Source: Alistipes sp. (GTDB lineage Bacteria > Bacteroidota > Bacteroidia > Bacteroidales > Rikenellaceae). From it: DNA of 64,000 nt. A program made the position numbers and the translations under genes. The notes beneath the pieces are model-generated. The model ran no database searches. It was not told the DNA's origin and was given only the letters and a program-made list of their open reading frames with translations. This document shows positions 23,195 to 63,895 of the stretch, in pieces. The stretch covers positions 85,247 to 149,246 of the forward strand of contig JBGVMU010000003.1 of the NCBI GenBank assembly GCA_045124955.1, in the 5' to 3' direction. Positions within the stretch are counted from its first letter, which is position 1, and each line of letters starts with the position of its first letter.

Positions 23195-23323
23195 AATTGA
23201 CAATTGACAATTGATAATTGACAATTATAGGTATTTTTATTTTTAACTACTCACTACTCACTACTCACTGCTCACTGCTCACTACTCACTGCTCACTGCT
23301 CACTGCTCACTGCTCACTACTCA
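23195..23323. repeat. Two heptamer arrays between mreC and mreD: (AATTGAC)x5 and (CTRCTCA)x11
   Basis: Arrays at 23195-23229 and 23247-23323; the second runs in phase into the mreC stop codon. Confidence 0.95.
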
Positions 23324-24148
23324 CTAATGGTAGGTTTTTTCTTCGAGTGCTTGTGCCTCGCCGGCACCTGTGTTGCGCACCAATACCACATTGTAGAGTC
23401 GGTTCATATCTGCCGCAAGGCGCACCTTGCAGTTGTAGGATGTACCATTCTCGGCAAGCTCTATCTCTTCGATATTTCCGATTATCGCCTCCTTAGGGAA
23501 GTAGTGCGAGAAACCTGCGGCACGCACCAAGTTGTCTTTCTGCACCTTGGCATACTTGGACAACTCCACAAAGTCTATAATCTGCGTATCGCCACCACGC
23601 CACGCCACCGAGCCGTGACTACCATCCTCTGCCAACACTCCGCCAAGACGGAAATCGACATTCAAGAGCGTCTTTGCCACGGCGAAGTTCTCCGAGCAAT
23701 CGACCACCACACCTACGGCATAACCCTCGGGGGTCATCACTGCCATATCGGCAAATACTCCGTCTTGAAAGCCCTTGTCGAGGGTGATAAAGTTGCGACG
23801 ACGATTTGTGGTTGAGGATATCACACGGGCCGAGAGGTACTCATACCTCTGCAATACCCCCTCGACTGCCAATTTCTCCTCGGGTTGCATAGCTTCGAGG
23901 GTGCGAATGCGGTTTTCGAGCGTAGCGATATGCTCGGTCAAACGGGTATTCTCCTTGCGGAGCGCAAAGTAGTTCGATATTCCAGCAAAGGTTGATTGCA
24001 CCGCACCCACCACCGTATTTGACCACACAAGCAGGCGAGCCTGTGTATATGGCGTCGAATAGGCGTAACAGCGAATGGCGATAATCTCCAAAATGATAAA
24101 GACTATCGCCACTGCGGTTTTGCGTATGAAGTATATCAACTTCTGCAT
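23324..24148 (-). CDS. mreC: Rod shape-determining protein MreC
   Basis: Coiled coil LRKENTRL, ARVISST...FITLDKG, FPKEAIIG. Confidence 0.95.
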   Translation of the reverse strand: MQKLIYFIRKTAVAIVFIILEIIAIRCYAYSTPYTQARLLVWSNTVVGAVQSTFAGISNYFALRKENTRLTEHIATLENRIRTLEAMQPEEKLAVEGVLQRYEYLSARVISSTTNRRRNFITLDKGFQDGVFADMAVMTPEGYAVGVVVDCSENFAVAKTLLNVDFRLGGVLAEDGSHGSVAWRGGDTQIIDFVELSKYAKVQKDNLVRAAGFSHYFPKEAIIGNIEEIELAENGTSYNCKVRLAADMNRLYNVVLVRNTGAGEAQALEEKTYH

Positions 24149-24155
24149 CTTGAAA

Positions 24156-24279
24156 AAAATTATTCTGATTGGTAAATTTTGCGCTGCTCTTCGGTAAGCG
24201 AAATCCTCACATACCTCTTAGTATGCTGCGGTTTCGCTTCCTCGTTTATCGCAAAATTTCCTCAATCATCTCTAATTTT
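24156..24279. repeat. ~123-bp palindromic element, copy B (between mreB and mreC)
   Basis: AAAATTATTCTGATT...CTCACATAC-CTCTTA-GTATGCTGCG...AATCATCTCTAATTTT. Confidence 0.85.
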
Positions 24280-24297
24280 GTTTTTTGCTATCAGATT

Positions 24298-25317
24298 TTA
24301 TCGCATCAAGAACGAGAAGCGGTTAATATTTTTCAATGCGATGTTCGTACCTCGAACTACTGCACGCAACGGATCCTCTGCAATGTGGAACGGAATACCT
24401 GTCTTCTTCGAAAGACGGCGGTCGAGGCCCTTAATCAAAGCACCACCACCTGCGAGGTAGATACCATTGCGAACAACATCGGTATAGAGCTCGGCAGGCA
24501 TCTCCTGCAACACCTTCATAAGTGCTGCGTCGAGCTTTACGAGCGACTTGTCGAGTGCGTAGGCAATCTCGTTGTACGACAAGGTGATTGTCTGCGGAAG
24601 ACCTGTGAGCATACTTGGACCTGTAACTACGAAGTCCTCGGGAGCATCCTCCAACTCAGGTACTGCTGCACCAATCTTACACTTAATCTCCTCGGCAGTA
24701 CGCTCACCGATGCGCACGCTGTGCTGGTGGCGAACATACTCCATAATATCGGTTGTAAACTCATCACCCGCAACCTCGATGGACTCCGAACATACGATAC
24801 CGCCCAACGAGATACAAGCGATCTCAGAGGTACCACCACCTATGTCGATAATCATATTACCCTCTGGTGCCTCTACATCGATACCTGCACCGAGAGCAGC
24901 AGCCATAGGCTCGAAGATCATCGCAACCTCACGGCCACCGGCGTGCTCTGCCGAGTCACGCACGGCACGAATAGCAACATCGGTTGAACCCGAAGGGATG
25001 CAGATAACCATTTTGAGCGAAGGCGAGAAGAGCGAGCTTCTGGTCTTAATCTTGCGAATCATACCACGCAACATCAACTCCGTAGCGTTGAAGTCGGCGA
25101 TAACACCATCCTTCAACGGGCGGATGGTGCGAAGGTTAGGGTTGGTACGACCGATGAAGGCGTGAGCCTTGCGACCGAGCTCTACCAACTGGCCGGTCTG
25201 CACATTTACCGCAACGACAGATGGCTCATCAACTACCACCTCGTCGTTATAAACAATCAGAGTATTGGCTGTACCAAGGTCGATAGCCAACTCCTGTGTC
25301 AATGAAAAAAGTCCCAT
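24298..25317 (-). CDS. mreB: Rod shape-determining protein MreB
   Basis: AIDLGTANT, RPLKDGVIADF, IDIGGGT, LAGGGAL. Confidence 0.98.
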   Translation of the reverse strand: MGLFSLTQELAIDLGTANTLIVYNDEVVVDEPSVVAVNVQTGQLVELGRKAHAFIGRTNPNLRTIRPLKDGVIADFNATELMLRGMIRKIKTRSSLFSPSLKMVICIPSGSTDVAIRAVRDSAEHAGGREVAMIFEPMAAALGAGIDVEAPEGNMIIDIGGGTSEIACISLGGIVCSESIEVAGDEFTTDIMEYVRHQHSVRIGERTAEEIKCKIGAAVPELEDAPEDFVVTGPSMLTGLPQTITLSYNEIAYALDKSLVKLDAALMKVLQEMPAELYTDVVRNGIYLAGGGALIKGLDRRLSKKTGIPFHIAEDPLRAVVRGTNIALKNINRFSFLMR

Positions 25318-25365
25318 AAGTGTATCTATTTTTATCTAAATTTTATTCCAAACTCCAACTTTTGA

Positions 25366-25426
25366 CAAAGATAGTGAAAAGTTATATAACTTTTCCTAAT
25401 TTTATACGAATTTTTTACTATCTTTG
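25366..25426. promoter_or_regulatory. Back-to-back promoters of mreB and pgi with a central 20-bp perfect palindrome
   Basis: TATCTTTG on the minus strand (25366-25373) and on the plus strand (25419-25426); GAAAAGTTATATAACTTTTC at 25376-25395. Confidence 0.7.
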
Positions 25427-25476
25427 ACAATCATTTTTGAGCGAAGAATTATTTCAAACTAAAAAACAATAAAATT

Positions 25477-26811: not shown

Positions 26812-26971
26812 TGGAGTGGAGAGTTGAAAATGGAGAGTTGAGAGTTTTTCTCGACTCTCTTTTTTTAGGGCTATTAGCCATTGGCCATTAGCCATTAGCT
26901 TTTTAGGGGTGATAGGGATAATAGGGGTAATAGGGTTTTTCTAAACTCACTAAATTCCCTAAATTCTCTAA
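26812..26971. repeat. Heptamer arrays (GGAGAGT; CCATTAG) plus a composite 9-mer element
   Basis: 26812-26845, 26871-26899 and 26894-26971; the last is the near reverse complement of 33741-33826. Confidence 0.85.
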
Positions 26972-27001
26972 TCTCCATAAATTCCCTCTCTTCCTGACTT
27001 C

Positions 27002-27124
27002 AAAATCGTAAATGGTTGAGGGAATTTTGTGCAAGGCTAGGCGTTGAGTGCGGAGCATACTTGGCGTATGTGAGCAACTCAACGACCGACGACTTGTGCA
27101 AAATTCACCAACCAGAACGATTTT
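27002..27124. repeat. ~123-bp palindromic element, copy C (opposite orientation)
   Basis: CGGAGCATAC-TTGGC-GTATGTGAG core; termini AAAATCGT...ACGATTTT; closely similar to copy E at 62407. Confidence 0.88.
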
Positions 27125-27493: not shown

Positions 27494-27541
27494 CAAAGGT
27501 AGAATAAAAAATTCAGAATGCAAAATGCAAAATGCAAAATT
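27494..27541 (-). promoter_or_regulatory. rpmE2 promoter with a (CAAAATG)x4 heptamer array across the -33 region
   Basis: TACCTTTG on the minus strand at 27494-27501; a TTTG from the array at 27521-27524 gives 19-nt spacing. Confidence 0.7.
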
Positions 27542-27584: not shown

Positions 27585-27770
27585 CATAGGAGATGCACCT
27601 GCGATGCTTGATAAGAGGCGGAGCAGAGCTCCTTTATGGGAGATACCGACAAGTCGGCTTGATAGGAATTGTGTCCTGGCTTATCTTGTCAAGTAGTCGC
27701 AAGACTACGCCTCCTATCAAGCAATTCTTTGAATTGCACCTCCTATCAAGGGCGCAGCACGACTCTTATA
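27585..27770. repeat. Array of CNYCTCCT-ATCAAG units each followed by a different mini-hairpin; two halves in inverted orientation
   Basis: Three units on each strand; related units at 63730-63804. Confidence 0.85.
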
Positions 27771-31738: not shown

Positions 31739-33559
31739 ATGACAAAGATTGAACTTCTTGCTCCGGCAAAAGACTACGACACAGCGGTTGATGCTATCGA
31801 CTGCGGTGCCGATGCTGTATATATCGGTGCAGGAAAGTTTGGTGCTCGCCACTCGGCAACCAATGCCGTGGAGGATATTGCACGAGTTGCGGAGTATGCT
31901 CATCGCTATGGCGTGAAGGTCTATGCAACGCTCAACACTCTGCTCTTCGACCACGAGTTGGAGGAGGCTCGTGAACAGGCTCTCGCCTTGATTAAGGCGG
32001 GTGTCGATGCGCTTATTGTGCAGGATATGGCGTATTGGAAGATGAATCTGCCGATAGCACTGCACGCCTCAACGCAGACCAACTGCGCCTCACCCGAGAG
32101 GGTAAAATTCTTCGAGGAGATGGGCTTTGCAAGGGCGATTTTGGAGCGGTCGTTATCGAAAAACGATATTGCCGAGATTCGCAAGGCGACAAATATCGAG
32201 TTGGAAGCCTTTGTTCACGGAGCGATTTGCGTGTCGCAGAGTGGTCGTTGTTTCTTCTCTCGCTCGACATCGGAGCGCAGTGGCAATCGTGGCGAGTGCA
32301 GCCAGCCGTGCCGCTTGGAGTACGACCTCTGCAACGACAAGGGTGAAACAATCATCAAAAGCAAGCACCTTCTTTCGGTGCGTGACCTCGACCTCTCGGC
32401 TCGATTGGGCGAGATGATTGACTTGGGTATCTGCTCGTTCAAAATCGAGGGCAGATTGAAAGACCGCACCTATGTCCGCAATATAGTAAGCCTCTACCGC
32501 CAACTCCTCGACCGAGAGATTGCCAAGCGCAACGATGTCGAGCGCAGTTCGGTGGGGCGCAGTGTGGTGGAGTTCGAGCCTAACGCCTCACGCACCTTTA
32601 CCCGTGGTGCAGGCGAATACTTCTTCGATGGCAAGTGTCGTGGTGTAGCATCGTTCGATACCCCGAAGGCTATGGGCGAGCGAATTGGCAAAGTTGCGAG
32701 AGCAGACCGCCGAGGCATCGTTCTCGACCGCAAGCACGACCTTACGACGGGCGATGGCGTATGTTTTATCTCGAATGGCTCGTTGGTCGGCACAAATGTC
32801 GTAGGCATAGAGGGAGAGCGCATTCAACTCAACCGCTACGATGGCGTGGCTGTGGGTGTAGAGCTCTTCCGCAACTACAACCGATTGTTCTCGCAAGCGG
32901 TGGAGCGCAGCCGAGTGAAGCGCACGATTGCGGTAGATTTGAATTTGAAGTTCGAGCAAGATAAAATAACCCTTACTGCGACCGACGAAACGGGTTGCGA
33001 GGGCTCGGCTATGGTGGAGCACGCATTCGAGGCGGTGCGAGATGCGGCAAAGGGCGAGGAGGCTCTGCGCCGACAACTCTCCCGTTCGGGCGATACGATG
33101 TTCGAGGTGCGTGATATCGCAATCGAAAACCTCGGCTTTGTGCCTATGTCGGTGGTAGGAGAGTTGCGCCGTGAAGCGCTTAATAACCTCGAAATCAGCC
33201 GTTTGACAGACTATGAATTCGAGTTGCACTTGGCTTCGTTTATCGACTCGACAAATCGTTGGGAGCGCAAGGCGCAATATCCGTCGAAGTTGCTCACTCC
33301 GCAAGATAATGTAACAAACCACCTTGCGAGGGAGTTCTACGCCGAGTGTGGCGTGGAGGAGATTGCCGAGGGTTTGGATTGCCGACCTTCGACTGCCGGC
33401 GAGCAGGTCATAATCTCGGACTACTGCATCCGCCGAGAGATTGGCGAGTGCTTATTGGAGCGACCACGCTTGCGAGGCGACCTCTACCTGGTGCGAGGTA
33501 CGAAGAAGTATCGTTTGTGCTTCGACTGCAAGAAGTGCCAGATGAAAGTGATAGATTAG
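31739..33559 (+). CDS. rlhA: U32-family protein with C-terminal DUF3656-like region (RlhA-type rRNA hydroxylase)
   Basis: ELLAPA, GADAVY, HASTQ, FVHGAICVSQSGRC, NRGECSQPCR, KIEGR. The 606-aa length fits the RlhA subgroup; the symbol is inferred. Confidence 0.8.
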   Translation: MTKIELLAPAKDYDTAVDAIDCGADAVYIGAGKFGARHSATNAVEDIARVAEYAHRYGVKVYATLNTLLFDHELEEAREQALALIKAGVDALIVQDMAYWKMNLPIALHASTQTNCASPERVKFFEEMGFARAILERSLSKNDIAEIRKATNIELEAFVHGAICVSQSGRCFFSRSTSERSGNRGECSQPCRLEYDLCNDKGETIIKSKHLLSVRDLDLSARLGEMIDLGICSFKIEGRLKDRTYVRNIVSLYRQLLDREIAKRNDVERSSVGRSVVEFEPNASRTFTRGAGEYFFDGKCRGVASFDTPKAMGERIGKVARADRRGIVLDRKHDLTTGDGVCFISNGSLVGTNVVGIEGERIQLNRYDGVAVGVELFRNYNRLFSQAVERSRVKRTIAVDLNLKFEQDKITLTATDETGCEGSAMVEHAFEAVRDAAKGEEALRRQLSRSGDTMFEVRDIAIENLGFVPMSVVGELRREALNNLEISRLTDYEFELHLASFIDSTNRWERKAQYPSKLLTPQDNVTNHLAREFYAECGVEEIAEGLDCRPSTAGEQVIISDYCIRREIGECLLERPRLRGDLYLVRGTKKYRLCFDCKKCQMKVID

Positions 33560-33573
33560 ACGAGAGACGAGAG
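33559..33573 (+). repeat. (GACGAGA)x2 heptamer starting at the U32 stop codon
   Basis: TAG-ACGAGAG-ACGAGAG; reverse complement of the array at 34638-34667. Confidence 0.6.
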
Positions 33574-33610
33574 TTTTTCGTCTTTTCTTTTTGGGCTTTT
33601 AGCCATTGGC

Positions 33611-33713
33611 TTTTTACATACCCCCCTCCGCTACGCTCGTCCCCCTAACTTAGGGGGACAATACCTTATCTATTCCTCCCCTAACTTAGGGGAGGTGGCA
33701 AAGCCAGAGGGGG
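33611..33713. repeat. REP-like doublet, copy 1
   Basis: Hairpins GTCCCCCTAACTTAGGGGGAC (33639-33659) and CCTCCCCTAACTTAGGGGAGG (33675-33695); inverted copy at 40399-40505. Confidence 0.88.
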
Positions 33714-33740
33714 ATTTAGTTTTTGGGGCTTTTAGTGAGC

Positions 33741-33836
33741 TTAGAGGAATTAGGGAGTTTAGCGAGTTTAGAAAAACCCTATCACCCCTATTCCCCCTAT
33801 TATCCCTATCACCCCTAAAAAGCTAACGGCTAAAAG
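33741..33836. repeat. Composite 9-mer element (inverted copy of 26894-26971 with one extra unit)
   Basis: Direct alignment by eye. Confidence 0.85.
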
Positions 33837-33851
33837 CCAATAAAAAGGTAT

Positions 33852-34223
33852 TTACTTTACCACCCAATCAACAACTCCCAACTTATTTATACTCCTAATT
33901 GCGGCGGCGACAATGGATAGAGGTGAAAGATAGAAATTCTCTTGCCTATATATATCAACTCTTTCGACACCTCGGCTTGGTTGTTCTACCTCTAATGCTA
34001 TTGTGGGAGGAGTTGCAGAAAAGTTGTAAATAGCAGATATTAGCTTGCCGCCATTTACGATTAGGGGTGCTGTTTCGCCTTTGGAATTTAGAAATAGATA
34101 GTGTCGGCACGATGCATCGGTATGGCATTTGGCGAAGAATAGAATATGCTCAGAACGATGGTGCAACATCTCAAAGGTTGGCTTCATCTCTGTTGCTCCA
34201 TTTGTATATACAGCATAGAACAT
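33852..34223 (-). CDS. Hypothetical protein or pseudogene remnant in an AT-richer island
   Basis: 123-aa ORF; upstream minus-strand promoter-like TTTG-N19-TAAATTTG (34478-34508); stops interrupt all upstream frames; no recognisable motif. Confidence 0.35.
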   Translation of the reverse strand: MFYAVYTNGATEMKPTFEMLHHRSEHILFFAKCHTDASCRHYLFLNSKGETAPLIVNGGKLISAIYNFSATPPTIALEVEQPSRGVERVDIYRQENFYLSPLSIVAAAIRSINKLGVVDWVVK

Positions 34224-34520
34224 CGTAGCCTAAATTTTCATCTCCACCAACACCCAATGGGGAAACATAAAAAAGAAAGCGTGGTGCTGAAAACTTATTT
34301 TAACGATGGGGTTCTGGAAAACCTCTGGAATAAAACAAGCAACAATCCCACGCCATACCGAGTGGTATGACACAAGAAGTCTGCCTATTCTCTCCCAACT
34401 AAAATTTTCCAGATTTCATCGTGAGAATAAACTTACACTTTCTGCGTAATTATGTCTGCAATCCGACGACTGCACCACAAATTTAGAAATAATTTTCGAG
34501 AGTTGCAAAAATAAACAATC

Positions 34521-34616: not shown

Positions 34617-34637
34617 ATCTATTATTTTTTGAAATTT

Positions 34638-34727
34638 CTCTCGTCTCTCGTCTCTCGTCTCTCGTCTTTTTATTATCTTTGCAAAAGAAAAAGCTAATGG
34701 CTAATGGCCAATAGCTAAAAGCCAAAA
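34638..34727 (+). promoter_or_regulatory. Methyltransferase promoter flanked by heptamer arrays
   Basis: (CTCTCGT)x4 at 34638-34667, TATCTTTG at 34674-34681, (GCTAATG-like)x5 at 34693-34727. Confidence 0.75.
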
Positions 34728-34732
34728 AAGGT

Positions 34733-35611: not shown

Positions 35612-35713
35612 GAGATTTCAAGTAATACAGCTACGAGCCTACGGCTCACGCAATGACGATATATTATTAAAAAAGCCAATGGCTAATGGCTAATGGCGAA
35701 AAGCTAATTTAAG

Positions 35714-37882
35714 ATGAAAGAGAGAAAGACAAAGCGAACAAACAAGAAGAGTAAGAAGATTGGATTTAGTGACCGTGCGGGCTTTATCGTGAATGCATTT
35801 CGAGAGATGCCCGAGAAGCGGTTCACACTCAAATATTTGGCTGCCGCATCGGGTGGTGCGGACAAGGAGGGGCGCAACCTCACAAAACATATCCTCGATA
35901 CCCTGCTCGAACAGGGCTACATCGAGGCAGAGGGCAAGGGCAAATATCACCTCAGCCGTAGCAAGATGCCTCACTACGAAGGCGTTGTTGATATGGCCGC
36001 TTCGGGTGCGATGTATGTGCAGTGCGAGGGGCTGGATAGCGATGTCTTTGTTCATCAGCGCAATACCCGCAACGCTCTGAATGGCGATAGGGTGGAGGTT
36101 ATCATAACCCACACCTCACGCAACGGAGCCAAGGAGGGCGAGATTTCGAAGGTGTTGGAGCGTTCGCCTCGTTGCTATGCAGGTCGTGTGGAGATTGCAT
36201 CAAAAACTATGGCGATTGTAGTTCCCGACTCTCGCAAAATGCCCGTTGATATTGCCATTTCACTCAAAAAATACCCCGACCTCAAACAAGACGACAAGGT
36301 GGCGGTGCGCATAGTCGATTGGCGAGATGGCGACCGCTTGCCACAGGGCGAATTGGTCGATATCTTGGGTGCTGCGGGCGATAACGATGCCGAGATGCAC
36401 GCCATTTTGCTCGAATACAACTTGCCTTACAAGTTCGAGGAGCAGGTCGAGCGAGCTGCAAATGCCATTGACGGTCGCATCACCGAGCGAGATATTGCCG
36501 AGCGTAGGGATATGCGAGCGGTGCCAACCCTCACGATTGACCCGGCAGATGCAAAGGACTTCGACGATGCTCTCTCGATACAAAAGATTGGCGAGGGTAA
36601 GTGGGAGGTCGGAGTTCATATTGCCGATGTTACGCACTATGTGCGTCCCGACTCAACTATTGATGACGAGGCGATAGAGCGAGGTACTTCGGTCTATCTG
36701 GTCGATAGAACAATTCCGATGTTACCCGAGAGGTTGTGCAACGACCTCTGTTCGTTGCGCCCACACGAGGATAAGCTCGCCTTTTCTGCCATTTTCCACA
36801 TCGACGAGAAGGGAAAAATCTCGCAAGAGTGGTTCGGTCGCACCGTTATTCACTCCGACCGTCGCTTCGCCTACGAGGAGGCTCAAAAAGTTATCGAGAC
36901 GGGCGAAGGCGATATGAAGGAGGAGATTTTGACTATGCACGACCTTGCACAGACCCTCCGCAAGGAGCGTTTCCGCAAGGGTGCGATTGCCTTCTCTCGC
37001 CGTGAGGCGAAGTTCCACCTCGACGAGAAGGGCAAGCCTACGGGGGTATATTTCAAGGTGCAGAAGGAGGCAAATCAACTTATCGAGGAGTTTATGCTCC
37101 TGGCAAATCGCCGTGTGGCGGAGTTCTGCGCAAAGGCGCACGGCAAGGAGCGCACGATGATTTTCCGTGTTCACGATGTGCCAAACAGCGACAAGTTCGA
37201 GCGTTTCCGCTCGTTTATCTTGCGCTTCGGTCATATCTTCAAGTCGCCAATCGACAAGGGCAATGCCGCAGCAAAGGAGTTGAACAAGTTGCTCGCCACA
37301 ATCAAGGGCAAGCCCGAGGAGAATGTCGTTTCGACACTCGCCATCCGTTCGATGGCAAAGGCGGTATATACCACCGACAACATCGGTCACTACGGCTTGG
37401 CGTTCCCATACTATACCCACTTTACATCGCCAATTCGACGCTATCCCGATATGATGGTGCATCGTCTGTTGCAGCGCTACCTCGACGGCAAGCGTTCGGC
37501 AGATAAGGATATGCACGAGTCGTTGTGCGTGCGTTGCTCGGAGCGAGAGGTTATCGCTGCCGATGCGGAGCGTGCTTCGATAAAGTACAAAATGGTGGAG
37601 TTTATGGCGGATAAGATTGGCGAGGAGTTCGACGGTCATATCTCGGGTATGAGCGAGTGGGGTATCTTCGTGGAGTTGGAGGATTCGATTGTCGAGGGTA
37701 TGATACTTATGCGTGATATCCCTGGCGACTACTACCAATTCGACGAGGAGCGCTACGAGGTCTTCGGCCACGCCACGGGCAAGGTCTTCACCATTGGCGA
37801 CAAGGTGCGTATCCGTGTCAGGAGTGCCGACCTACGCCGAAGATTGCTCGATTTTGAATATGTGAATTCAAAATCAAATTGA
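35714..37882 (+). CDS. rnr: Ribonuclease R
   Basis: TIDPADAKDFDDA, VHIADV, SVYLVDRTIPMLP, EEFMLLAN, YTHFTSPIRRYPD, C-terminal S1 domain. Confidence 0.97.
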   Translation: MKERKTKRTNKKSKKIGFSDRAGFIVNAFREMPEKRFTLKYLAAASGGADKEGRNLTKHILDTLLEQGYIEAEGKGKYHLSRSKMPHYEGVVDMAASGAMYVQCEGLDSDVFVHQRNTRNALNGDRVEVIITHTSRNGAKEGEISKVLERSPRCYAGRVEIASKTMAIVVPDSRKMPVDIAISLKKYPDLKQDDKVAVRIVDWRDGDRLPQGELVDILGAAGDNDAEMHAILLEYNLPYKFEEQVERAANAIDGRITERDIAERRDMRAVPTLTIDPADAKDFDDALSIQKIGEGKWEVGVHIADVTHYVRPDSTIDDEAIERGTSVYLVDRTIPMLPERLCNDLCSLRPHEDKLAFSAIFHIDEKGKISQEWFGRTVIHSDRRFAYEEAQKVIETGEGDMKEEILTMHDLAQTLRKERFRKGAIAFSRREAKFHLDEKGKPTGVYFKVQKEANQLIEEFMLLANRRVAEFCAKAHGKERTMIFRVHDVPNSDKFERFRSFILRFGHIFKSPIDKGNAAAKELNKLLATIKGKPEENVVSTLAIRSMAKAVYTTDNIGHYGLAFPYYTHFTSPIRRYPDMMVHRLLQRYLDGKRSADKDMHESLCVRCSEREVIAADAERASIKYKMVEFMADKIGEEFDGHISGMSEWGIFVELEDSIVEGMILMRDIPGDYYQFDEERYEVFGHATGKVFTIGDKVRIRVRSADLRRRLLDFEYVNSKSN

Positions 37883-38034
37883 CAATTGATAGTTGATAAT
37901 TGAGAATTATAGGTAAAAGCGATGCAAAACATCGCTTTTATTTTTTTATTTGTATATCAGATGTAAATTTTAATATAAAATACCACAAATTGTCAATTGT
38001 CAATTGTCAATTATCAATTAGATTTCTAACTTTG
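37877..38034. repeat. Inverted pair of AATTGAC/AATTGTC heptamer arrays enclosing the rnr terminator and ending at the mqnC promoter
   Basis: 37877-37911 (contains the rnr TGA), terminator AAAAGCGATG-CAAAA-CATCGCTTTT at 37915-37947, array at 37988-38020, TAACTTTG at 38027-38034. Confidence 0.88.
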
Positions 38035-39130: not shown

Positions 39131-39180
39131 AAAAACGAGCAGATGCTCGTTTTTTTTGCTATTAGCCATTAGCCATTAGC
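39129..39180. terminator. Bidirectional terminator between mqnC and rimM, followed by a (CCATTAG) array
   Basis: AAAAAAACGAGC-AGAT-GCTCGTTTTTTT; array at 39158-39180. Confidence 0.8.
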
Positions 39181-40287: not shown

Positions 40288-40334
40288 CAAAGGTACGAAT
40301 AAAATTCAAAATGCAAAATTCAAAATGCAAAATT
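40288..40334 (-). promoter_or_regulatory. rpsP promoter with (CAAAATK)x4 heptamer array
   Basis: TACCTTTG on the minus strand at 40288-40295; array at 40301-40334. Confidence 0.7.
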
Positions 40335-40350
40335 AAACTTAAAAATTAAA

Positions 40351-40537
40351 AATTATCGGAATTATATAGTTTAGTGTTGTCAAAAACATAAAGGAATACC
40401 CCTCTGGCTTTCAGCCACCTCCCCTAACTTAGGGGAGGAATATAAAATAAAGTATTGTCCCCCTAAATTAGGGGGACGAGCGTAGCGGAGGGGGTATGTA
40501 AAAAACTACAACACTAAACTGTATAATTCCGAAAATT
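40351..40537. mobile_element. 187-bp MITE-like element: 30-bp inverted ends enclosing REP-like doublet copy 2
   Basis: 40351-40380 and 40508-40537 are reverse complements with 2 mismatches; the doublet lies at 40399-40505; no transposase present. Confidence 0.55.
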
Positions 40538-46518: not shown

Positions 46519-47931
46519 CTATCGTTTTCCGTTTTCCGTCTTTAGCTTTCCGTTCTTCTTGCATTTGAAGATTGGGTTCTTCTCGGTAGCAGGCTCGATG
46601 CTTGTGTCGATACCGCCACCCAAAGCACGGTAGAGGTTGATAACACCCTGAATACCCTCAAAGCGGTCCGAAACCTGCTGCAATCGTGCCGAAAGCAACG
46701 ACTGCTGGGCGGTCAAAACCTCCAAGTAGGTAGCCTCCGAGTGGCTCATCAGCTGACGAGTACTATATACCGAACTCTCCAAAGTCTCGATCTGGCGAAT
46801 ACGCAAGTTGGTCTTGCTGCGAGCCGAACGGCACTGCGCCAATGCGGTATTCACCTCGCTACCAGCCTCCAATAACTTGTGTTCGAATTCGAGCAAAGCC
46901 TCCTTCTGCTGCGACTGTGCAATCTTGTAGTTTGCACGGTTTGCGCCAGCGTTGAAGATTGGTTGTACCAACTTACCCACGAACGAGAGTACCCAGGTTG
47001 CAGGGCTGCCCTCGAATGCGCCCTCGCCTGTGATGGTGAGCGAAGGGTAGAGCTTTGCGTGAGCGATGTTGGTGTTGTGGTATGCGATGCGGAGGTTATA
47101 CTCTGCCTGCTGAACATCGGGACGACGAGAGAGCAACTGCGCAGGTACGCCTACAAACAACTCCTGCTTGAAATCTACGCCATTCAACTCGCCACGAGGG
47201 AAGTCCTGTGGAGGAACACCCAACAAGAGTGCGAGAGAGTTTTGTGCCTTAACCAAGCTGTACTCCAAATCGTGCAACGATGCATCGATTGAGCAACTGT
47301 TAGCCTCGGTACGGGATACCGAAGCCTCGTTGGTCATACCCGCCTCCTTCATAGCCTTCATTGTGCGGACATTATCCTTCCACGAAGCCGAAGTTGCACG
47401 AGAGATGCGAAGCTGTGCATCGAGCATAAGGAGTGTATAGTAGTTGTTGGCGATAGCCGATACGAGTGCAGTCTGCACGCTACGACGATAGAGGCGGTTG
47501 TACTCCAATGTCGCCTCGGCCTTGCGCTTGGCGTTGATGTTGCGTGCCAAGATATCAATCTCCCAGCTCGCCTTTACAGGCAAGGTATAGGCGAATGATT
47601 GGTTCACGCCGGCACCAATCTGCGGCTCGAAGTTGAACGACGGAATAAACGCCAACTTTGCCGACTGCAATGCCAACTCCGCCTGCGAAACACGCTCTGC
47701 TGCCAACAGCATATCGATATTGTTCTTCAAGCCCTGCTCGATATAGCCCTGCAAGTACTTGTCGGTGAAGAACTCTCGCCACGAGATATCCGCAATGGTG
47801 GTGGTATCCGCCTTCTCGATGTTGCCATAGAGATTCTTGGTCGAGATCTCCTCGGGGCGGCTATATTTCTTGTAGATGGTGCAACTTGTGAAGAGAGTTG
47901 CAATACCCAATATTAAGAGAATCTTTTTCAT
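46519..47931 (-). CDS. TolC/OprM-family efflux outer-membrane lipoprotein
   Basis: Lipobox FTSC; SWEIDI, LLSRRPDV, YLEVLTAQ, LYRALGGG. The last ~12 codons are an ACGGAAA heptamer array. Confidence 0.95.
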   Translation of the reverse strand: MKKILLILGIATLFTSCTIYKKYSRPEEISTKNLYGNIEKADTTTIADISWREFFTDKYLQGYIEQGLKNNIDMLLAAERVSQAELALQSAKLAFIPSFNFEPQIGAGVNQSFAYTLPVKASWEIDILARNINAKRKAEATLEYNRLYRRSVQTALVSAIANNYYTLLMLDAQLRISRATSASWKDNVRTMKAMKEAGMTNEASVSRTEANSCSIDASLHDLEYSLVKAQNSLALLLGVPPQDFPRGELNGVDFKQELFVGVPAQLLSRRPDVQQAEYNLRIAYHNTNIAHAKLYPSLTITGEGAFEGSPATWVLSFVGKLVQPIFNAGANRANYKIAQSQQKEALLEFEHKLLEAGSEVNTALAQCRSARSKTNLRIRQIETLESSVYSTRQLMSHSEATYLEVLTAQQSLLSARLQQVSDRFEGIQGVINLYRALGGGIDTSIEPATEKNPIFKCKKNGKLKTENGKR

Positions 47932-54718: not shown

Positions 54719-54765
54719 CAAAGGTATGCAAATAAACGGAAAACTGAAAGCGGAAAACGGAAAAC
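54719..54765 (-). promoter_or_regulatory. pyrD-like promoter with (RCGGAAA)x4 array directly upstream
   Basis: TACCTTTG on the minus strand at 54719-54726, 7 nt from the ATG; array at 54736-54765. Confidence 0.7.
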
Positions 54766-54780: not shown

Positions 54781-54947
54781 GGAGCGAAAAGCGGAACCGC
54801 TGCGATTAAGTCGAGCGCAGAGAGGGCTTGCACACTCTGCCGAGACGGAGCAGTGAAGCCCGAAGGGCAACCGACGCAGCGGAGCGAGAGCAGAGGGTGC
54901 TTGCACACTATGCCGAGCCGCAAGGAGGAAAAGCCTGCGAAGCAGGA
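54781..54947. repeat. Element with a 19-bp direct repeat GCTTGCACACTMTGCCGAG and GAA-loop mini-hairpins
   Basis: Repeats at 54826-54844 and 54899-54917; hairpins GCCC-GAA-GGGC and CCTGC-GAA-GCAGG. Confidence 0.7.
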
Positions 54948-54970
54948 TTAAAACGGAAAACTTTCAATTT

Positions 54971-55270
54971 AGTGAGTAGAGAGTAGAGAGTAGTGAGTAG
55001 TGAGAACGGAAAACGGAAAGCGGAAAGCGGAAAACCCTCAGCGCCCCCTTAATAGCCCTTAATAGCCTTTAACAGCCTTTAATTCGTTGCGCCGTGATAA
55101 GGGTAGGAGTCTGCACAACCCCAAAAACCCTCAGCGCCCCCTTAATAGCCCTTAATAGCCCTTAATAGCCTTTAACAGCCCTTAATTCGTTGCGCCGTGA
55201 TAAGGGTAGGAGTCCGCACAACCCCAAAAGCCTTTCAGCGCACCCTATTACCCCTATAATTCGTTGCGCC
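54971..55270 (+). repeat. Fused heptamer array (9 units) followed by three tandem scaffold copies with 10-mer/9-mer cargo
   Basis: 54971-55033; scaffolds at 55031-55122 (3 x TAAYAGCCYT), 55123-55225 (4 units) and 55226-55270 (one 9-mer). Confidence 0.9.
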
Positions 55271-58342: not shown

Positions 58343-58608
58343 CCTATTGGTCTTATTTGTCCCATTTGTCCCATAGGTCCCATTCTTCTTTCTGCGCCAT
58401 TACACCGTGCTGGGTATGATTTTTAATACCCGCCACTGTGTGTGGCAGTTCTCAACTCTCCACTCTCAACTCACTCTTGTTTTTGCACCATTACACCTTG
58501 CTGGGTATGATTTTTAATACCCGCCACTTTATGGGTATGATGTGCGATTCTTCACTCTCCACTCTCCACTCTCCACTCTCCACTCTCAACTCTCCACTCT
58601 CAACTCTT
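58343..58608. repeat. 9-mer array, 41-bp direct duplication and (CACTCTC) heptamer arrays
   Basis: 9-mers at 58343-58383; 58397-58437 matches 58488-58528 (1 mismatch); 8 heptamers at 58553-58608 overlap the downstream stop codon. Confidence 0.88.
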
Positions 58609-62402: not shown

Positions 62403-62406
62403 AATA

Positions 62407-62529
62407 AAAATTATTCTGATTTGTAAATTTTGCACCTTGTGTCGGTCGTTGAGTTGCTCACATAGGCTTACTATGCTGCGCACTCATCGCCTAACAACGC
62501 ACAAAATTTCCTAAATCACCTCTAATTTT
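62407..62529. repeat. ~123-bp palindromic element, copy E (between murB and tilS)
   Basis: Core CTCACATAG-GCTTA-CTATGCTGCG, a compensatory C-G/G-C swap relative to the other copies. Confidence 0.88.
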
Positions 62530-62558
62530 TTAGTTTGTATCCAAGATACTTAATACAT

Positions 62559-62592
62559 CAATTGTCAATTGTCAATTATCAATTGTCAATTT
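62559..62592. repeat. (AATTGTC) heptamer array after the murB stop
   Basis: Four to five units ending 4 nt before the stop at 62597. Confidence 0.9.
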
Positions 62593-62596
62593 GTTT

Positions 62597-63607
62597 TTAT
62601 AAAACATTCACTTCTGGTGAAATCTCTATTCCGAACTTCTCTTTTACGGTTGCGACAACCTTGTGCGCAAAGGCGATAACCTCGCCACCCGTAGCACCTC
62701 CGAGATTTACCAAAACCAATGCCTGACGCTCGTGTACGCCGACATTACCTTCGTGGTAGCCCTTCAATCCCGACTTGTCGATAAGCCAACCTGCCGCAAG
62801 CTTCACCTTGCCCTCCTCGGCAGCAGGGTAGTGCGGCATTTCGGGGTACTCTGCCAGCAATCGCTCGGCAACCTCACGCTCTACGATGGGGTTTTTGAAG
62901 AAGCTTCCCGCATTGCCCAAAACGGCAGTGTCAGGCAACTTCGAGCGACGGATAGAGCAGATTGCATCACGAATATTTGCAAGAGTTGCGCCACCTCGTG
63001 CCTCGATTTCACGAACGACATCGCCATAGCCAAGACGAGGGTTTGCCACCTTCGACAACTCGATTTCGATGGCGGTGATGATGACACGACCCTTCAACGA
63101 GTGCTTGAATACGCTCTCTCGGTAGCCGAAACCGCAATGCTCGGCTGCGAGGGTTATGAAGTTGTTGCCCTCGACAAAGTACATATCGACGCTCTTGATT
63201 GCATCCTTCGCCTCTACGCCGTATGCACCAATATTCTGCACAGGTGCAGCACCCGCCTTGCCGGGGATAAGCGAGAGGTTTTCGATGCCCCAAAGGTTGC
63301 GCTCTACGCTCCACGCCACCAAGTCATCCCACTCGACACCTGCGCCCACCTTTACACGAACTGCCGTGTCGCTCTCGCCAATCACGGTTATGCTCTTGTC
63401 GCAAGGGGTGATAAGCAGTGCGTCGACATCCTGCGTGAAGAGGATGTTGTTGCCACCGCTCAACACATACCAACTCTCGGGTTGGTACTTCGCAAAGATT
63501 TCGGGCAACTCCTCGGCGTGGTCGAACTCCACAAGATGTTTTGCCGTTTGTCGAACATGGAACGAATTGCGCTCCGAGATGTCGATATTTTGGTAGTAGC
63601 GTATCAT
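62597..63607 (-). CDS. murB: UDP-N-acetylmuramate dehydrogenase
   Basis: LSGGNNILF, ENLSLIPG, APVQNIGAYG, FGYRESVFK, GNAGSFFKNP, QALVLVN, EVN. Confidence 0.97.
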   Translation of the reverse strand: MIRYYQNIDISERNSFHVRQTAKHLVEFDHAEELPEIFAKYQPESWYVLSGGNNILFTQDVDALLITPCDKSITVIGESDTAVRVKVGAGVEWDDLVAWSVERNLWGIENLSLIPGKAGAAPVQNIGAYGVEAKDAIKSVDMYFVEGNNFITLAAEHCGFGYRESVFKHSLKGRVIITAIEIELSKVANPRLGYGDVVREIEARGGATLANIRDAICSIRRSKLPDTAVLGNAGSFFKNPIVEREVAERLLAEYPEMPHYPAAEEGKVKLAAGWLIDKSGLKGYHEGNVGVHERQALVLVNLGGATGGEVIAFAHKVVATVKEKFGIEISPEVNVL

Positions 63608-63635
63608 TTTGTTATCGTAGCACTATTTTATAGTG

Positions 63636-63895
63636 CAAAGATAATAAAATGAGCGGAAAACGGAAAACGGAAAGCGGAAAACTTTTAATTTAGAGAGTAG
63701 TGAGTAGTTAAAAACTTTCAGCGCTCCCTATCAAGCAGTTGCAAACTGCGCCTCTTATCAAGGGCGTAGCCCGCCTCCTATCAAGCACCGTAGGTGCGCC
63801 TCCTATAATCGTTGCGCCGAGATAAGGGTAGGAGTTCGCAAGCCGCAAAAAAAAGGAGAGTCGATCTCTCAACTCTCCACTCTAAACTCTCAACT
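63636..63895. repeat. murB promoter followed by a composite repeat homologous to 54736-55270
   Basis: TATCTTTG on the minus strand at 63636-63643; (RCGGAAA)x4 at 63653-63682; AGWGAGT units; scaffold at 63710-63840 with three ATCAAG-hairpin units; (CTCTCMA) array at 63866-63895. Confidence 0.88.

What the first reader, a model, noticed from the sequence alone, without database searches (positions are those of the whole stretch)
23195..63895. Heptamer arrays of many sequence types obey one position and strand rule at gene boundaries
Seen: about 20 tandem arrays, all with a 7-nt period but at least seven different units (AATTGAC, AGTGAGY, GGAGAGT, GACGARA, RCGGAAA, CAAAATG, GCTAATG). Nine lie at or within ~25 nt of a stop codon (mreC, pgi, U32, rnr, rimM, tolC, DUF6549-like, murB, right-edge gene), all with the purine-richer strand as sense; five of these overlap or abut the stop codon. 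Six lie just upstream of a TAnnTTTG box (rpmE2, methyltransferase, mqnC, rpsP, pyrD-like, murB), all with the complementary strand as sense. The purine-rich strand therefore reads away from the adjacent gene. Exceptions: 26871, 34693, 35675. Established: cyanobacterial STRR elements are also intergenic heptamer arrays. Inference: random slippage would not fix both period and polarity across unrelated units, so a dedicated repeat-generating mechanism or a protein-binding/termination function is plausible.
Basis: partly seen in the sequence, partly recalled or inferred. Interest (0 to 1): 0.78.

Follow-up and report, generated by a model that had tools for sequence, protein, structure and literature searches.

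The report
Oriented heptamer repeat blocks between genes
The spaces between genes in this Alistipes-like gut bacterium hold blocks of about 32 bases made of 7-base repeats, and these blocks point away from the neighbouring gene; the pattern is real and recurs in related genomes, but the same rule was already published for other bacteria, and ordinary constraints from promoters, terminators and the genetic code probably explain it.

Summary
The window has about 25 period-7 arrays of seven or more unit families. Nine touch a stop codon with the purine-rich strand as sense. Six end 5-10 nt before a TAnnTTTG promoter box with the T-rich strand as sense.

The rule replicates in independent Bacteroidota genomes:
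- Arrays 0-5 nt from an ORF end: 43 purine-rich against 3.
- 20 of 22 MAGs are majority-consistent.
- 14 of 15 promoter-fused arrays are T-rich in sense.

It is not new in kind. Rehm et al. 2015 described the same polarity, stop-codon overlap and roughly 4-unit preference for G-rich heptamers in Xanthomonas and Nostoc. Period 7 is the known dominant class of long bacterial simple repeats.

What is added here:
- The rule holds for units that cannot form G-quadruplexes.
- Arrays behave as modules of about 32 nt with fixed ends. They are dispersed and swapped between strains.
- Arrays at 3' ends are often translated as hydrophilic tails or form the 5' arm of terminators.
- Arrays at 5' ends carry the -33 TTG/TTTG motif.

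My best reading is slippage-made modules filtered or recruited by neighbouring signals. No dedicated repeat-writing mechanism was found, and none is excluded.

The parts
23195..23226 (+). (AATTGAC)4.6; 8 nt upstream of the mreD-like start, so T-richer in that gene's sense; followed by AATTATAGGTA, as in the copy at 37877
23246..23326 (-). (GAGTAGT/GAGCAGT)11.6; overlaps the mreC stop codon (TAG lies in the first unit); purine-rich in mreC sense; inside the mreC-mreD spacer, with no significant fold
26814..26846 (+). (GGAGAGT/TGAGAGT)4.7; 5 nt after the pgi stop; its last units form the 5' arm of a terminator-like hairpin (26832-26860) followed by TTTTTTT
26860..26995 (+). Composite module: (GCCATTA)3.9 - T5 - (TAGGGGTRA)3.6 - T4 - (CTAAAYTCN)3.9. 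A second, inverted copy lies at 33725-33850. The two 9-mer arrays pair with each other in the fold.
27508..27540 (+). (GCAAAAT)4.7, which reads (TTTTGCA)n in rpmE sense; ends 6 nt before the rpmE -7 box TACCTTTG; its last unit supplies TTTG at a 19-nt spacing
33558..33583 (+). (AGACGAG)2.3 overlapping the U32 peptidase stop (TAG lies in the first unit), and the 5' arm of a terminator-like hairpin followed by TTTCTTTTT
33725..33850 (-). Second copy of the composite 7/9/9-mer module, inverted relative to 26860-26995
34637..34667 (-). (TCTCTCG)4.4 on the + strand; ends 6 nt before the methyltransferase -7 box TATCTTTG; pyrimidine-rich in sense
34693..34718 (+).
35678..35708 (+).
37877..37908 (+). 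(AATTGAC)4.6 overlapping the rnr stop (TGA lies in the first unit); left arm of a 143-nt inverted-array module (37877-38019)
37911..37943 (+). Terminator-like hairpin with a T-run, enclosed by the two AATTGAC arrays
37988..38019 (-). (AATTGTC)4.6 on the + strand; right arm of the module; ends 7 nt before the mqnC -7 box TAACTTTG. The whole 156-nt spacer is absent in L002 and L007.
39161..39180 (-). (ATTAGCC)2.9 on the + strand, 2 nt from the rimM stop. This spacer carries entirely different arrays in L001, L002, L004 and L008.
40301..40354 (+). (AAAATTC/AAAATGC)7.9, which reads (TTTTGCA/TTTTGAA)n in rpsP sense; ends 5 nt before the rpsP -7 box TACCTTTG; replaced by (GTTTTCC)n in L004
43427..43478 (+). 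(AGACGAA)7.4 inside the Omp85-family ORF; encodes the linker IDERRETKDERQETKDERK after the signal peptide; L004 has 6 more units, in frame
46523..46554 (-). (GAAAACG)4.6 in tolC sense; encodes the tolC C-terminus NGKLKTENGKR, with the stop directly after the array
54734..54765 (+). (AAACGGA)4.6, which reads (GTTTTCC)n in pyrD sense; ends 7 nt before the pyrD-like -7 box TACCTTTG
54970..55035 (+). (TAGTGAG)5.0 directly followed by (AACGGAA)4.4, mid-spacer; the same junction grammar as at 63654-63710
58450..58472 (-). (TCTCAAC)3.3 on the + strand, mid-spacer downstream of DUF6549
58549..58607 (-). (GGAGAGT/TGAGAGT)8.4 in DUF6549 sense; abuts the stop codon
62558..62591 (-). (AATTGAC)4.9 in murB sense, 5 nt after the murB stop
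63654..63682 (+). (CGGAAAA)4.1, which reads (GTTTTCC)n in murB sense; ends 10 nt before the murB -7 box TATCTTTG
63855..63895 (-). (GGAGAGT/TGAGAGT)4.3 at 63866-63895, 3 nt after the right-edge gene's stops (TAA TAG). Its last unit is the 5' arm of the hairpin 63878-63855, which is followed by TTTTTTTT.

Best explanation
WHAT IT IS. These are STRR- or LSSR-type short tandem-repeat modules. They are blocks of 4-5 heptamers, about 32 nt long, drawn from a limited vocabulary of units that Alistipes-like, Rikenellaceae and Bacteroidaceae genomes share.

HOW THE BLOCKS ARISE AND MOVE.
- Shown: they change size by 7-nt slippage. The Omp85-family linker differs by 6 units, in frame. Copy number differs between L001 and L002.
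- Shown: they are dispersed or exchanged as modules with fixed ends. A composite module occurs twice. Whole spacers differ between strains whose flanking genes are 91-100% identical. CGGAAAA runs end in one fixed phase.
- Inferred: the period-7 preference is the general slippage bias proposed for bacteria.

WHY THEY ARE ORIENTED (inferred). Polarity is imposed by the neighbouring signals.

(a) At an ORF's 3' end the array often overlaps the coding sequence, so only the purine-rich sense strand is tolerated. By the genetic code, that strand either contains stop codons or encodes hydrophilic tails. The complementary strand is open and hydrophobic. The A-rich strand can also serve as the A-tract and 5' arm of terminator hairpins, which are often bidirectional and are closed by a CCGTTTT-type complement plus a T-run.

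(b) At promoters the T-rich strand is kept or recruited. It carries the TTG/TTTG -33 motif about 19 nt from TAnnTTTG, and it merges with the T-run just upstream of the box. This would explain the fixed gap of 4-10 nt.

Inverted pairs with the purine-rich array first satisfy both constraints at once.
For: PERIOD AND SPREAD
- Period-7 excess in the window and in 1.13 Mb of related loci: 478 period-7 arrays against 190 for period 9 and fewer than 115 for any other period.
- Loci chosen for one (CGGAAAA)3 hit carry about 2 further heptamer arrays of other units per 8 kb.

POLARITY IN INDEPENDENT BACTEROIDOTA LOCI
- 3' ends 42:9 and 5' ends 3:18.
- Excluding the query unit: 42 of 58 arrays consistent.
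- By MAG 20:2. After collapsing shared flanks, 3' ends 31:7.
- The bias is confined to arrays at ORF ends. At 0-5 nt it is 43 purine-rich against 3. At 16-40 nt it is 0 against 5.

TRANSLATION
- Of the 43 purine-rich arrays at 0-5 nt, 13 contain the stop codon and 10 are read through (KTENGKR-type tails and linkers). Only 1 pyrimidine-rich array overlaps a stop.
- Window examples: the tolC C-terminus and the Omp85-family linker.
- Across 56 distinct units, the purine-rich strand has a stop in 34, with mean hydropathy -1.20. The pyrimidine-rich strand has a stop in 15, with mean hydropathy +0.78.

TERMINATORS
- Three 3' arrays are the 5' arm of a hairpin followed by a T-run.
- The rnr|mqnC fold has z=-8.6.
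- Exact reverse-complement partners within 100 nt lie after the purine-rich array in 43 cases and before it in 16.
- Acidobacterial examples are stop-(AAAACGG)n-loop-(CCGTTTT)n hairpins.

PROMOTERS
- 15 of 26 arrays lying within 150 nt upstream of a TAnnTTTG box end 4-10 nt before it, and 14 of those 15 are T-rich in sense.
- At rpmE the last array unit gives TTTG at the same 19-nt spacing as in relatives that have no array there.
- The promoter consensus is taken from PMC7366714.

MODULE BEHAVIOUR.
Against: - No expression data are available. Promoter and terminator roles are inferred from sequence alone.
- (GTTTTCC)n and (TCTCTCG)n arrays offer no good TTTG at -33.
- About 13 T-rich arrays sit 6-15 nt before an ATG with no -7 box between. 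Promoter compatibility cannot explain these.
- Several arrays have no fold and no obvious signal: mreC|mreD, and 54970-55035 (z about 0).
- After collapsing related loci, the 5' half is 11:4, p=0.12.
- Simple slippage does not predict a length mode at about 32 nt or a fixed end phase. These fit a defined element or a bound protein better.
- Recurrent unit families are few. Seven of eight have the purine-rich array first, so the purine formulation is weak at the family level.
- In other phyla the purine rule is absent overall.
Confidence: 0.45

Rival explanations
1. The arrays are operator-like binding sites for proteins that read contiguous heptads. On DNA this could be ribbon-helix-helix repressors, like the omega repressor, or activators and silencers, as at the Vibrio ctxAB TTTTGAT heptads. 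On RNA it could be OB-fold proteins (cold-shock domain or S1 domain) that bind about 7 nt per domain. Polarity and the roughly 4-unit length would then reflect how an oligomer docks next to RNA polymerase or the ribosome.
For: - Length mode of 4-5 units, not a geometric decline.
- Fixed end phase of CGGAAAA runs.
- Fixed 4-10 nt register to the -7 box.
- A limited, shared vocabulary of units across genera.
- Arrays keep their copy number across strains with 97-98% identical flanks.
- Published proposals of S1, cold-shock or unidentified binding partners for heptamer repeats (PMC4679880; bioRxiv 10.1101/2022.06.06.494920).
Against: - At least seven unrelated unit families, plus a long tail of unique units, would need many readers.
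- The unit can be swapped at one promoter: rpsP has TTTTGCA in most strains and GTTTTCC in L004.
- The array can be absent from orthologous promoters while the protein is 100% identical.
- No candidate binding-protein gene was seen in the window.
Confidence: 0.17
2. The arrays are the terminal inverted repeats, or internal modules, of small non-autonomous mobile or mosaic elements comparable to MITEs, REP/BIME or Neisseria NIME. Polarity follows from geometry: an element that fills a spacer always presents its outer ends to the flanking genes. Solo arrays would be remnants or chimeras.
For: - The 143-nt rnr|mqnC module has 25-32-nt inverted array arms and is present in some strains and absent in others.
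- Two AATTGAC arrays share the flank AATTATAGGTA.
- A 115-nt composite module occurs in two inverted copies.
- Spacers are swapped wholesale between close strains.
- About 30% of arrays have an exact reverse-complement partner within 100 nt.
- Array ends have a fixed phase.
- Other true MITEs are active in the same genomes.
Against: - No target-site duplication was found at the rnr|mqnC module. There the gene termini are replaced rather than interrupted.
- Most window arrays have no partner of the same unit.
- The rule holds for arrays without partners, 27:6 at 3' ends.
- In the U32-methyltransferase spacer the module order is not nested (pairs I2 and I5).
- In-situ growth is seen in a coding linker.
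- No transposase was linked to the arrays.
Confidence: 0.17
3. A dedicated repeat-writing process lays down purine-rich heptamer tracts 5'->3', for example reiterative extension of 3' ends at breaks or nicks in spacers. Tracts on both sides of a spacer would then point inward, whatever the orientation of the genes.
For: - The rule reduces to 'purine-rich on the left, pyrimidine-rich on the right' in every spacer, independent of gene strand.
- Defined block length and end phase.
- A related polarity is reported in distant phyla (PMC4692102) and seen in Acidobacteriota.
Against: - There is no gradient of degeneracy along the arrays.
- No candidate enzyme was found.
- The bias fades beyond about 15 nt from ORF ends, which points to selection by neighbouring signals.
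- Recurrent unit vocabularies are not predicted.
- There is no purine rule in most other phyla.
Confidence: 0.05
4. Non-B DNA or RNA structure, namely G-quadruplexes, explains position and strand. This was proposed for the Xanthomonas and Nostoc heptamers.
For: The polarity and the roughly 4-unit preference match those G-rich repeats (PMC4692102).
Against: None of the heptamer units here has a G3 tract. No GGGAATC or GGGGATT arrays are present.
Confidence: 0.02
5. Neutral slippage debris with no real polarity: the rule is a small-sample or annotation artefact.
For: - The window alone gives only p of about 0.04.
- Purine assignment is marginal (4:3) for the AATTGAC and GCTAATG units.
- My gene calls are home-made.
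Against: - The rule replicates in independent genomes with p of about 1e-4 after de-duplication and also by MAG.
- Non-array spacer sequence shows no such asymmetry.
- The gap to the -7 box is sharply peaked.
Confidence: 0.03

Closest known systems
G-rich heptamer repeats GGGAATC (Xanthomonas) and GGGGA(C/T)T (Nostoc), Rehm et al. 2015, PMC4692102
   Same: - Intergenic heptamer arrays, mostly between co-directional genes.
- The purine-rich (G-rich) strand is sense within 50 bp of the stop codon or overlapping it, and antisense within 50 bp upstream of an ORF.
- Preference for about 4 units.
- Mostly transcribed.
   Different: - One unit per genome there, against at least seven families here.
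- Their explanation is the G-quadruplex, and the units here have no G-tracts.
- Here there is also a fixed 4-10 nt register to the Bacteroidetes -7 box, plus translated arrays.
Cyanobacterial STRR (short tandemly repeated repetitive) heptamers. Calothrix/Anabaena, from my own knowledge; mentioned in PMC4692102.
   Same: Several heptamer families per genome, tandem, intergenic, function unresolved.
   Different: - The STRR units CCCCAGT, TTGGTCA and CAACAGT are absent as arrays.
- Different phylum.
- As far as I know, no strand rule has been described for STRR as a class.
Long simple sequence repeats (LSSR) of 5-11 nt, with heptanucleotides dominant. Mrazek, Guo and Shah 2007, as summarised in PMC4679880.
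   Same: Excess of period 7 over many unrelated units. A slippage origin is proposed.
   Different: That survey did not report polarity, a fixed block length, or modular dispersal. Bacteroidales were not among its top genomes.
TAACTGA direct repeats in Beggiatoaceae, cyanobacteria and five Bacteroidetes (MacGregor 2015, PMC4679880)
   Same: Oriented heptamer arrays close to start codons, or after stops in the reverse orientation. Other heptamers are noted in the same spacers in Gramella and Aequorivita.
   Different: A single unit, absent here. Mostly 2-6 copies directly before the ATG. Proposed to act in translation.
TTTTGAT heptad repeats upstream of the Vibrio cholerae ctxAB promoter (bioRxiv 10.1101/2021.05.14.444153)
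   Same: T-rich heptads on the sense strand directly upstream of a promoter's core. Copy number differs between strains.
   Different: A single locus with known binders (ToxT and H-NS). A sigma-70 promoter, not a genome-wide family.
REP/BIME and Neisseria NIME mosaic intergenic elements (from my own knowledge)
   Same: Spacers after stop codons are filled with mosaics of short motifs in alternating orientation. The mosaics vary between strains and are often structured.
   Different: Their units are 20-40-nt palindromes, not tandem arrays of 7-10 nt. No RAYT-type gene was examined here.

Membership tests
Heptanucleotide LSSR class (Mrazek 2007) | Head-to-tail tandem repeats of a 5-11-nt unit, longer than chance | tested here: met
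   14 exact period-7 runs against 0 for most other periods
Heptanucleotide LSSR class (Mrazek 2007) | Period 7 is the dominant class, spread over many unrelated units | tested here: met
   478 period-7 arrays in 1.13 Mb; 56 distinct units
G-quadruplex-forming heptamer repeats (Rehm 2015) | The unit carries a G3-4 tract, so four units can form a quadruplex | tested here: not met
   Units listed have no GGG; one search finds no GGGAATC or GGGGATT
G-quadruplex-forming heptamer repeats (Rehm 2015) | Purine-rich (G-rich) strand is sense at or over the stop codon, and antisense within 50 bp upstream of an ORF | tested here: met
G-quadruplex-forming heptamer repeats (Rehm 2015) | Preference for about 4 units | tested here: met
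   length mode of 32-35 nt
Cyanobacterial STRR | Several families of tandem heptamers in intergenic DNA | tested here: met
Cyanobacterial STRR | Consensus units CCCCAGT, TTGGTCA, CAACAGT | tested here: not met
   no tandem dimers. Only a 9-mer at 15839-15872 contains ACTGGGG.
Cyanobacterial STRR | Host is a (heterocystous) cyanobacterium | tested here: not met
   the window is 79-90% identical to an 'Alistipes sp.' MAG over three genes
MITE | Terminal inverted repeats | tested here: met
   pair I4: arms 37877-37901 and 37988-38012, 88% complementary. This applies to the rnr|mqnC module only.
MITE | Target-site duplication at the insertion | tested here: not met
   no duplication. The last codons of rnr and the first codons of mqnC are replaced.
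MITE | Presence/absence polymorphism between strains | tested here: met
   present in the window, L001, L004, L005 and L009; absent in L002 and L007
REP/BIME-type mosaic elements | The unit is an imperfect palindrome of 20-40 nt, mobilised by a RAYT transposase | tested here: not met
   The arrays are direct repeats of 7-10 nt. Presence of a RAYT gene was not tested.
Phase-variable contingency SSR | Unit gain or loss between close strains that switches a reading frame or changes promoter spacing | tested here: inconclusive
   Arrays are identical across strains with 97-98% identical flanks. The Omp85-family array differs by 6 units and stays in frame. Copy number differs between L001 and L002 at mqnC|rimM.
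Intrinsic (Rho-independent) terminator | G+C-containing hairpin followed by a T-run directly after a gene | tested here: met
   26832-26860, 33558-33583 and 63878-63855 use array units as the 5' arm. Applies to 3 of 9 stop-adjacent arrays. Function is not shown.
Bacteroidetes sigma-ABfr promoter | -7 box TAnnTTTG with TTTG/TTG about 19 nt upstream | tested here: met
   the box lies 5-10 nt after six window arrays. TTTG inside the array sits at 19 nt for rpmE and at 18 nt for rpsP by my reading of the sequence. The fit is weak for GTTTTCC and TCTCTCG arrays. Consensus from PMC7366714.

The most novel reading that the evidence does not exclude
Heptamer blocks are a sequence-independent 'punctuation' system. 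They have a defined period (7), a defined size (about 4.5 units, about 32 nt) and defined ends. A dedicated reader or writer, not yet identified, places them at the edges of transcription units. The system would be shared by distant phyla: Bacteroidota, Acidobacteriota, Xanthomonas and cyanobacteria. The polarity published for G-rich repeats would then be one instance of a general rule unrelated to quadruplexes.
Probability: 0.12. Interest if true: 0.85.

Novelty: new variant of a known kind. Interest (0 to 1): 0.48.

Why it matters
- The published explanation for the polarity of heptamer repeats is the G-quadruplex. If the composite explanation here is right, that explanation is unnecessary. 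The same rule appears with units that cannot form quadruplexes, and it points instead to genetic-code, terminator and promoter constraints.

- The findings bear on how Bacteroidales genomes are annotated. Array-encoded C-terminal tails, N-terminal linkers and start or stop positions vary between strains.

- Promoters and terminators in these gut bacteria appear to be built partly from resizable repeat modules. Such modules could tune expression and speed up the turnover of intergenic DNA.

- The fixed block size and fixed end phase remain unexplained. They would be worth a direct search for a binding protein.

Tried and rejected
- **Rfam.** A scan of the whole window at gathering thresholds found no family.
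- **G-quadruplex.** Rejected because the units lack G-tracts.
- **Membership of STRR, TAACTGA, GGGAATC or the ctx-type TTTTGAT repeats.** Those units are absent as arrays.
- **Arrays simply inherit local base composition.** Non-array spacer sequence near 3' and 5' ends shows no purine asymmetry. This test is coarse: it does not separate A-tracts and T-runs at terminators and promoters.
- **Polar growth away from the gene.** There is no degeneracy gradient along the arrays.
- **Polarity due only to hairpin partners.** The rule holds for arrays without an exact reverse-complement partner. An earlier partner criterion allowing one mismatch was too lax to mean anything.
- **A universal purine rule.**
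  - Not seen in 69 loci from other phyla with a self-trained gene caller.
  - The exceptions are the CGGAAAA unit at 3' ends (31:13) and the Acidobacteriota (23:3 for arrays of any unit at either gene end).
- **Period-9 and period-10 arrays obeying the same rule.** Too few lie near gene ends to test.
- **The sigma-70 promoter scan.** It does not apply to Bacteroidetes, and its TTGACA hits inside AATTGAC arrays are artefacts of the unit.
- **Literature on such arrays in Alistipes.** Nothing found.

Full report

Yes. Tandem Repeats Finder lists 25 period-7 arrays in the window, 23 of them in 23195-63895. A scan for exact periodic runs finds 14 at period 7, 5 at 14, 1 at 21, 3 at 9, 1 each at 10 and 12, and none at any other period from 1 to 30.

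The arrays fall into at least seven unit families: AATTGAC, GAGTAGT, GGAGAGT, GAGACGA, CGGAAAA, GCAAAAT and GCTAATG.

All nine arrays of the stop-codon class check out:
- They overlap the stop of mreC, U32 and rnr.
- They abut the stop of DUF6549.
- They lie 2-5 nt from the stops of rimM, pgi, murB and the right-edge gene.
- The tolC array encodes the last 11 codons of the gene.

All six arrays of the promoter class end 5-10 nt before a TAnnTTTG box. The three exceptions are all GCTAATG arrays. This unit is only 4:3 in purines.

- The same spacers hold 9- and 10-nt arrays, so the period is not strictly fixed.
- One array (43427) is coding.
- Several arrays lie mid-spacer.

**2. Is it more than chance, and does it hold outside the window?**

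The window alone is weak: 15 of 20 arrays consistent, p=0.04. I gathered two further sets:
- Ten loci of 20.5 kb from relatives with an identical S16 protein.
- 117 loci of up to 8 kb from GTDB species genomes that contain (CGGAAAA)3. These include 48 from Bacteroidota.

I called genes with a codon model trained on the window's Pfam-confirmed genes.

Results in the independent Bacteroidota loci:
- Arrays within 40 nt of a 3' end are purine-rich in sense 42:9.
- Arrays within 40 nt of a 5' end are 3:18.
- Without the query unit, and including the window's own arrays, 42 of 58 arrays are consistent.
- By genome, 20 of 22 non-tied MAGs are majority-consistent.
- After collapsing arrays with shared flanks, 3' ends are 31:7 (p=1e-4). 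5' ends are 11:4 (p=0.12).

Non-array spacer sequence shows no such asymmetry.

In 69 loci from other phyla there is no overall purine rule (61:42 and 16:19). Two exceptions stand out. CGGAAAA arrays follow stops 31:13, and arrays of any unit in Acidobacteriota are 23:3 consistent.

**3. What the rule really is.**

The statement 'the purine-rich strand reads away from the gene at both ends' has an equivalent form that ignores gene orientation. In each spacer, arrays on the left are purine-rich (R) on the top strand and arrays on the right are pyrimidine-rich (Y). This holds for 81% of arrays in tandem spacers.

The bias is very local:

| Distance from ORF end | R | Y |
|---|---|---|
| 0-5 nt | 43 | 3 |
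| 6-15 nt | 6 | 1 |
| 16-40 nt | 0 | 5 |

On the promoter side, 15 of 26 arrays lying within 150 nt upstream of a TAnnTTTG box end exactly 4-10 nt before it. Fourteen of those 15 are T-rich in sense. Arrays further away are mixed.

**4. Anatomy.**

(a) *Translation.* Of the 43 R arrays at ORF ends, 18 follow the stop, 13 contain it, and 10 are read through.
- The tolC C-terminus ends ...NGKLKTENGKR*.
- The Omp85-family protein carries an array-encoded linker, IDERRETKDERQETKDERK, after its signal peptide. In L004 this linker has 6 extra units, in frame. In L001, L007 and L008 it is an ordinary Lys/Glu-rich linker.
- Across 56 distinct units, the R strand has a stop in 34, with mean hydropathy -1.20. 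The Y strand has a stop in 15, with mean hydropathy +0.78.

(b) *Terminators.*
- At pgi, U32 and the right-edge gene, the array units are the 5' arm of a hairpin followed by a T-run.
- The two AATTGAC arrays between rnr and mqnC form a long stem around a terminator (z=-8.6).
- About 30% of arrays have an exact reverse-complement 7-mer within 100 nt. The purine-rich array comes first in 43 cases and second in 16.
- Many Bacteroidaceae and Acidobacteriota spacers read stop-(AAAACGG)n-loop-(CCGTTTT)n.
- Other arrays have no fold: mreC|mreD, the region upstream of rpsP, and 54940-55050.

(c) *Promoters.*
- At rpmE the last TTTTGCA unit places TTTG 19 nt before TACCTTTG.
- Relatives with the same L31 protein but no array have TTTG or TTG at the same 19-nt spacing.
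- At rpsP all ten relatives keep a heptamer array. L004 has GTTTTCC in place of TTTTGCA.

(d) *Module behaviour.*
- Array length has its mode at 32-35 nt. It does not decline geometrically, as the 9- and 10-mers of other phyla do.
- CGGAAAA runs end in the phase ...GGAAAAC|T in 46 of 75 cases.
- A 115-nt composite of one 7-mer array and two 9-mer arrays occurs twice, in inverted orientation.
- Two AATTGAC arrays share the flank AATTATAGGTA.
- The mqnC|rimM spacer is 52, 251, 116, 48 or 206 nt long in different strains. It holds different arrays in each, although the flanks are 79-100% identical (91-100% except L008).
- The 156-nt rnr|mqnC spacer is absent in L002 and L007. There the genes abut and have different termini.
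- There is no degeneracy gradient along the arrays.

**5. What is already known.**

- Mrazek et al. 2007 found heptanucleotides to be the commonest long simple repeat in most repeat-rich bacteria and proposed polymerase slippage. I take this from its summaries in PMC4679880 and PMC4692102.
- Rehm et al. 2015 (PMC4692102) reported, for GGGAATC in Xanthomonas and GGGGAYT in Nostoc, the same polarity. The G-rich strand is antisense within 50 bp upstream of an ORF and sense within 50 bp of the stop or overlapping it. They also reported a preference for about 4 units, and they interpreted both through G-quadruplexes.
- MacGregor 2015 (PMC4679880) described oriented TAACTGA arrays, including in five Bacteroidetes.
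- A Nostoc preprint (10.1101/2022.06.06.494920) reports effects of heptamer repeats near promoters and start codons.
- I found no paper on such arrays in Alistipes.
- The window's organism is a relative of an 'Alistipes sp.' MAG: serS is 90% identical, the methyltransferase 86% and U32 79%.

**6. Explanation.**

The best-supported reading has three steps.
- Arrays arise and change size by 7-nt slippage. The size changes are shown. The reason for a period of 7 is inferred.
- They behave as modules that are copied or swapped between spacers. The pattern is shown. The mechanism is unknown.
- Their orientation is filtered or exploited by their neighbours.
  - At ORF ends only the strand that contains stops or encodes hydrophilic residues is tolerated. 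It also serves as the A-rich 5' arm of terminators.
  - At promoters the T-rich strand supplies the -33 TTG/TTTG and merges with the T-run before the -7 box.

I give this a confidence of 0.45, because several observations fit a defined element or a bound protein better:
- the block size;
- the fixed end phase;
- T-rich arrays directly before an ATG with no promoter box between;
- poor -33 matches in GTTTTCC arrays.

Rivals and their weights: heptad-reading proteins 0.17, termini of mobile or mosaic elements 0.17, a dedicated writer 0.05, G-quadruplex 0.02, artefact 0.03.

**7. Caveats.**

- The gene calls are my own.
- The related loci were chosen through one unit and include some orthologous spacers. 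I handled this.
- Recurrent unit families are few. Seven of eight have the purine-rich array first, so 'purine' may not be the true determinant.
- No expression data were available.

**8. Verdict.**

This is a new variant of a known kind: oriented heptamer repeats, here with many units, none of them G-quadruplex-forming, and fused to promoters and terminators in Bacteroidales.

Noticed in passing
window 40348-40540: A MITE of about 190 nt with 33-nt terminal inverted repeats (AAAAATTATCGGAATTATATAGTTTAGTGTTGT). It is flanked by an 8-bp duplication, ATAATTTT, and is absent at this site in L002. Another copy sits inside the rnr|mqnC spacer of L001, L005 and L009. An internal fragment lies at about 33600-33700.
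   Followed up: partly
window about 19265-19350, 24170-24262, 27020-27112, 46383-46480, 62425-62512: A REP-like palindromic element of about 85-90 nt (TTTTGCGC...CTCACATAC...GTATGCTGCG...GCAAAA) in five spacers. It folds strongly (z=-7.6 for the MatE|TolC spacer). Related copies occur in Alistipes MAG loci L020, L074, L077 and L089.
   Followed up: partly
window 27590-27770, 63715-63850, 55046-55246: The motif CCTCCTATCAAG alternates with small variable hairpins (period about 23 nt). There is also a 103-nt tandem duplication that carries (CCCTTAATAG)n 10-mer arrays. No Rfam match.
   Followed up: no
window 43353-43560; L004 6139-7689: The Omp85-family protein has a heptamer array in frame, directly after its signal peptide. 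Relatives differ by 6 units (14 aa), or have an ordinary Lys/Glu-rich linker instead. A change of one or two units would shift the frame, so phase variation is possible.
   Followed up: partly
L016 1272, L055 2433, L124 1832, L067 4606: (AAAACGG)n arrays lie in frame inside long ORFs, as KTENGKRKTEN-type linkers. L055 and L124 are orthologous.
   Followed up: partly
window 39683-39771: The S16 gene (rpsP) encodes 180 aa, against a 62-aa S16 domain. Its 3' part holds repeats of period 24, 12 and 3 nt, giving a low-complexity C-terminal extension.
   Followed up: no
window 15839-15954: 9- and 10-mer arrays lie left of the finding's range. (GGGGTTACT)n contains ACTGGGG, the reverse complement of the cyanobacterial STRR1 unit. 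(TCCCATTAG)n follows it.
   Followed up: no
window 33560-34732; L062 3744-3800: The U32-methyltransferase spacer is 1173 nt here but only about 85 nt in Alistipes MAG L062. The extra DNA holds arrays, a MITE fragment and an ORF of 123 aa (33852-34223, minus strand) with no Pfam match.
   Followed up: no
window 25362-25430: An inverted pair of -7 boxes (CAAAGATAGT / ACTATCTTTG). These look like back-to-back divergent promoters for mreB and pgi.
   Followed up: no
L001 about 11100-11240 (mqnC|rimM spacer) and window 54790-54950: A dispersed element of about 135 nt (ACCGACGCAGCGGAGCGAGAGCAGAGGG...GCCTGCG.AGCAGGATTAA) is inserted inside heptamer arrays and flanked by direct copies of the array unit. 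Related cores follow AAAACGG arrays in Bacteroidaceae loci L079, L119 and L122.
   Followed up: partly
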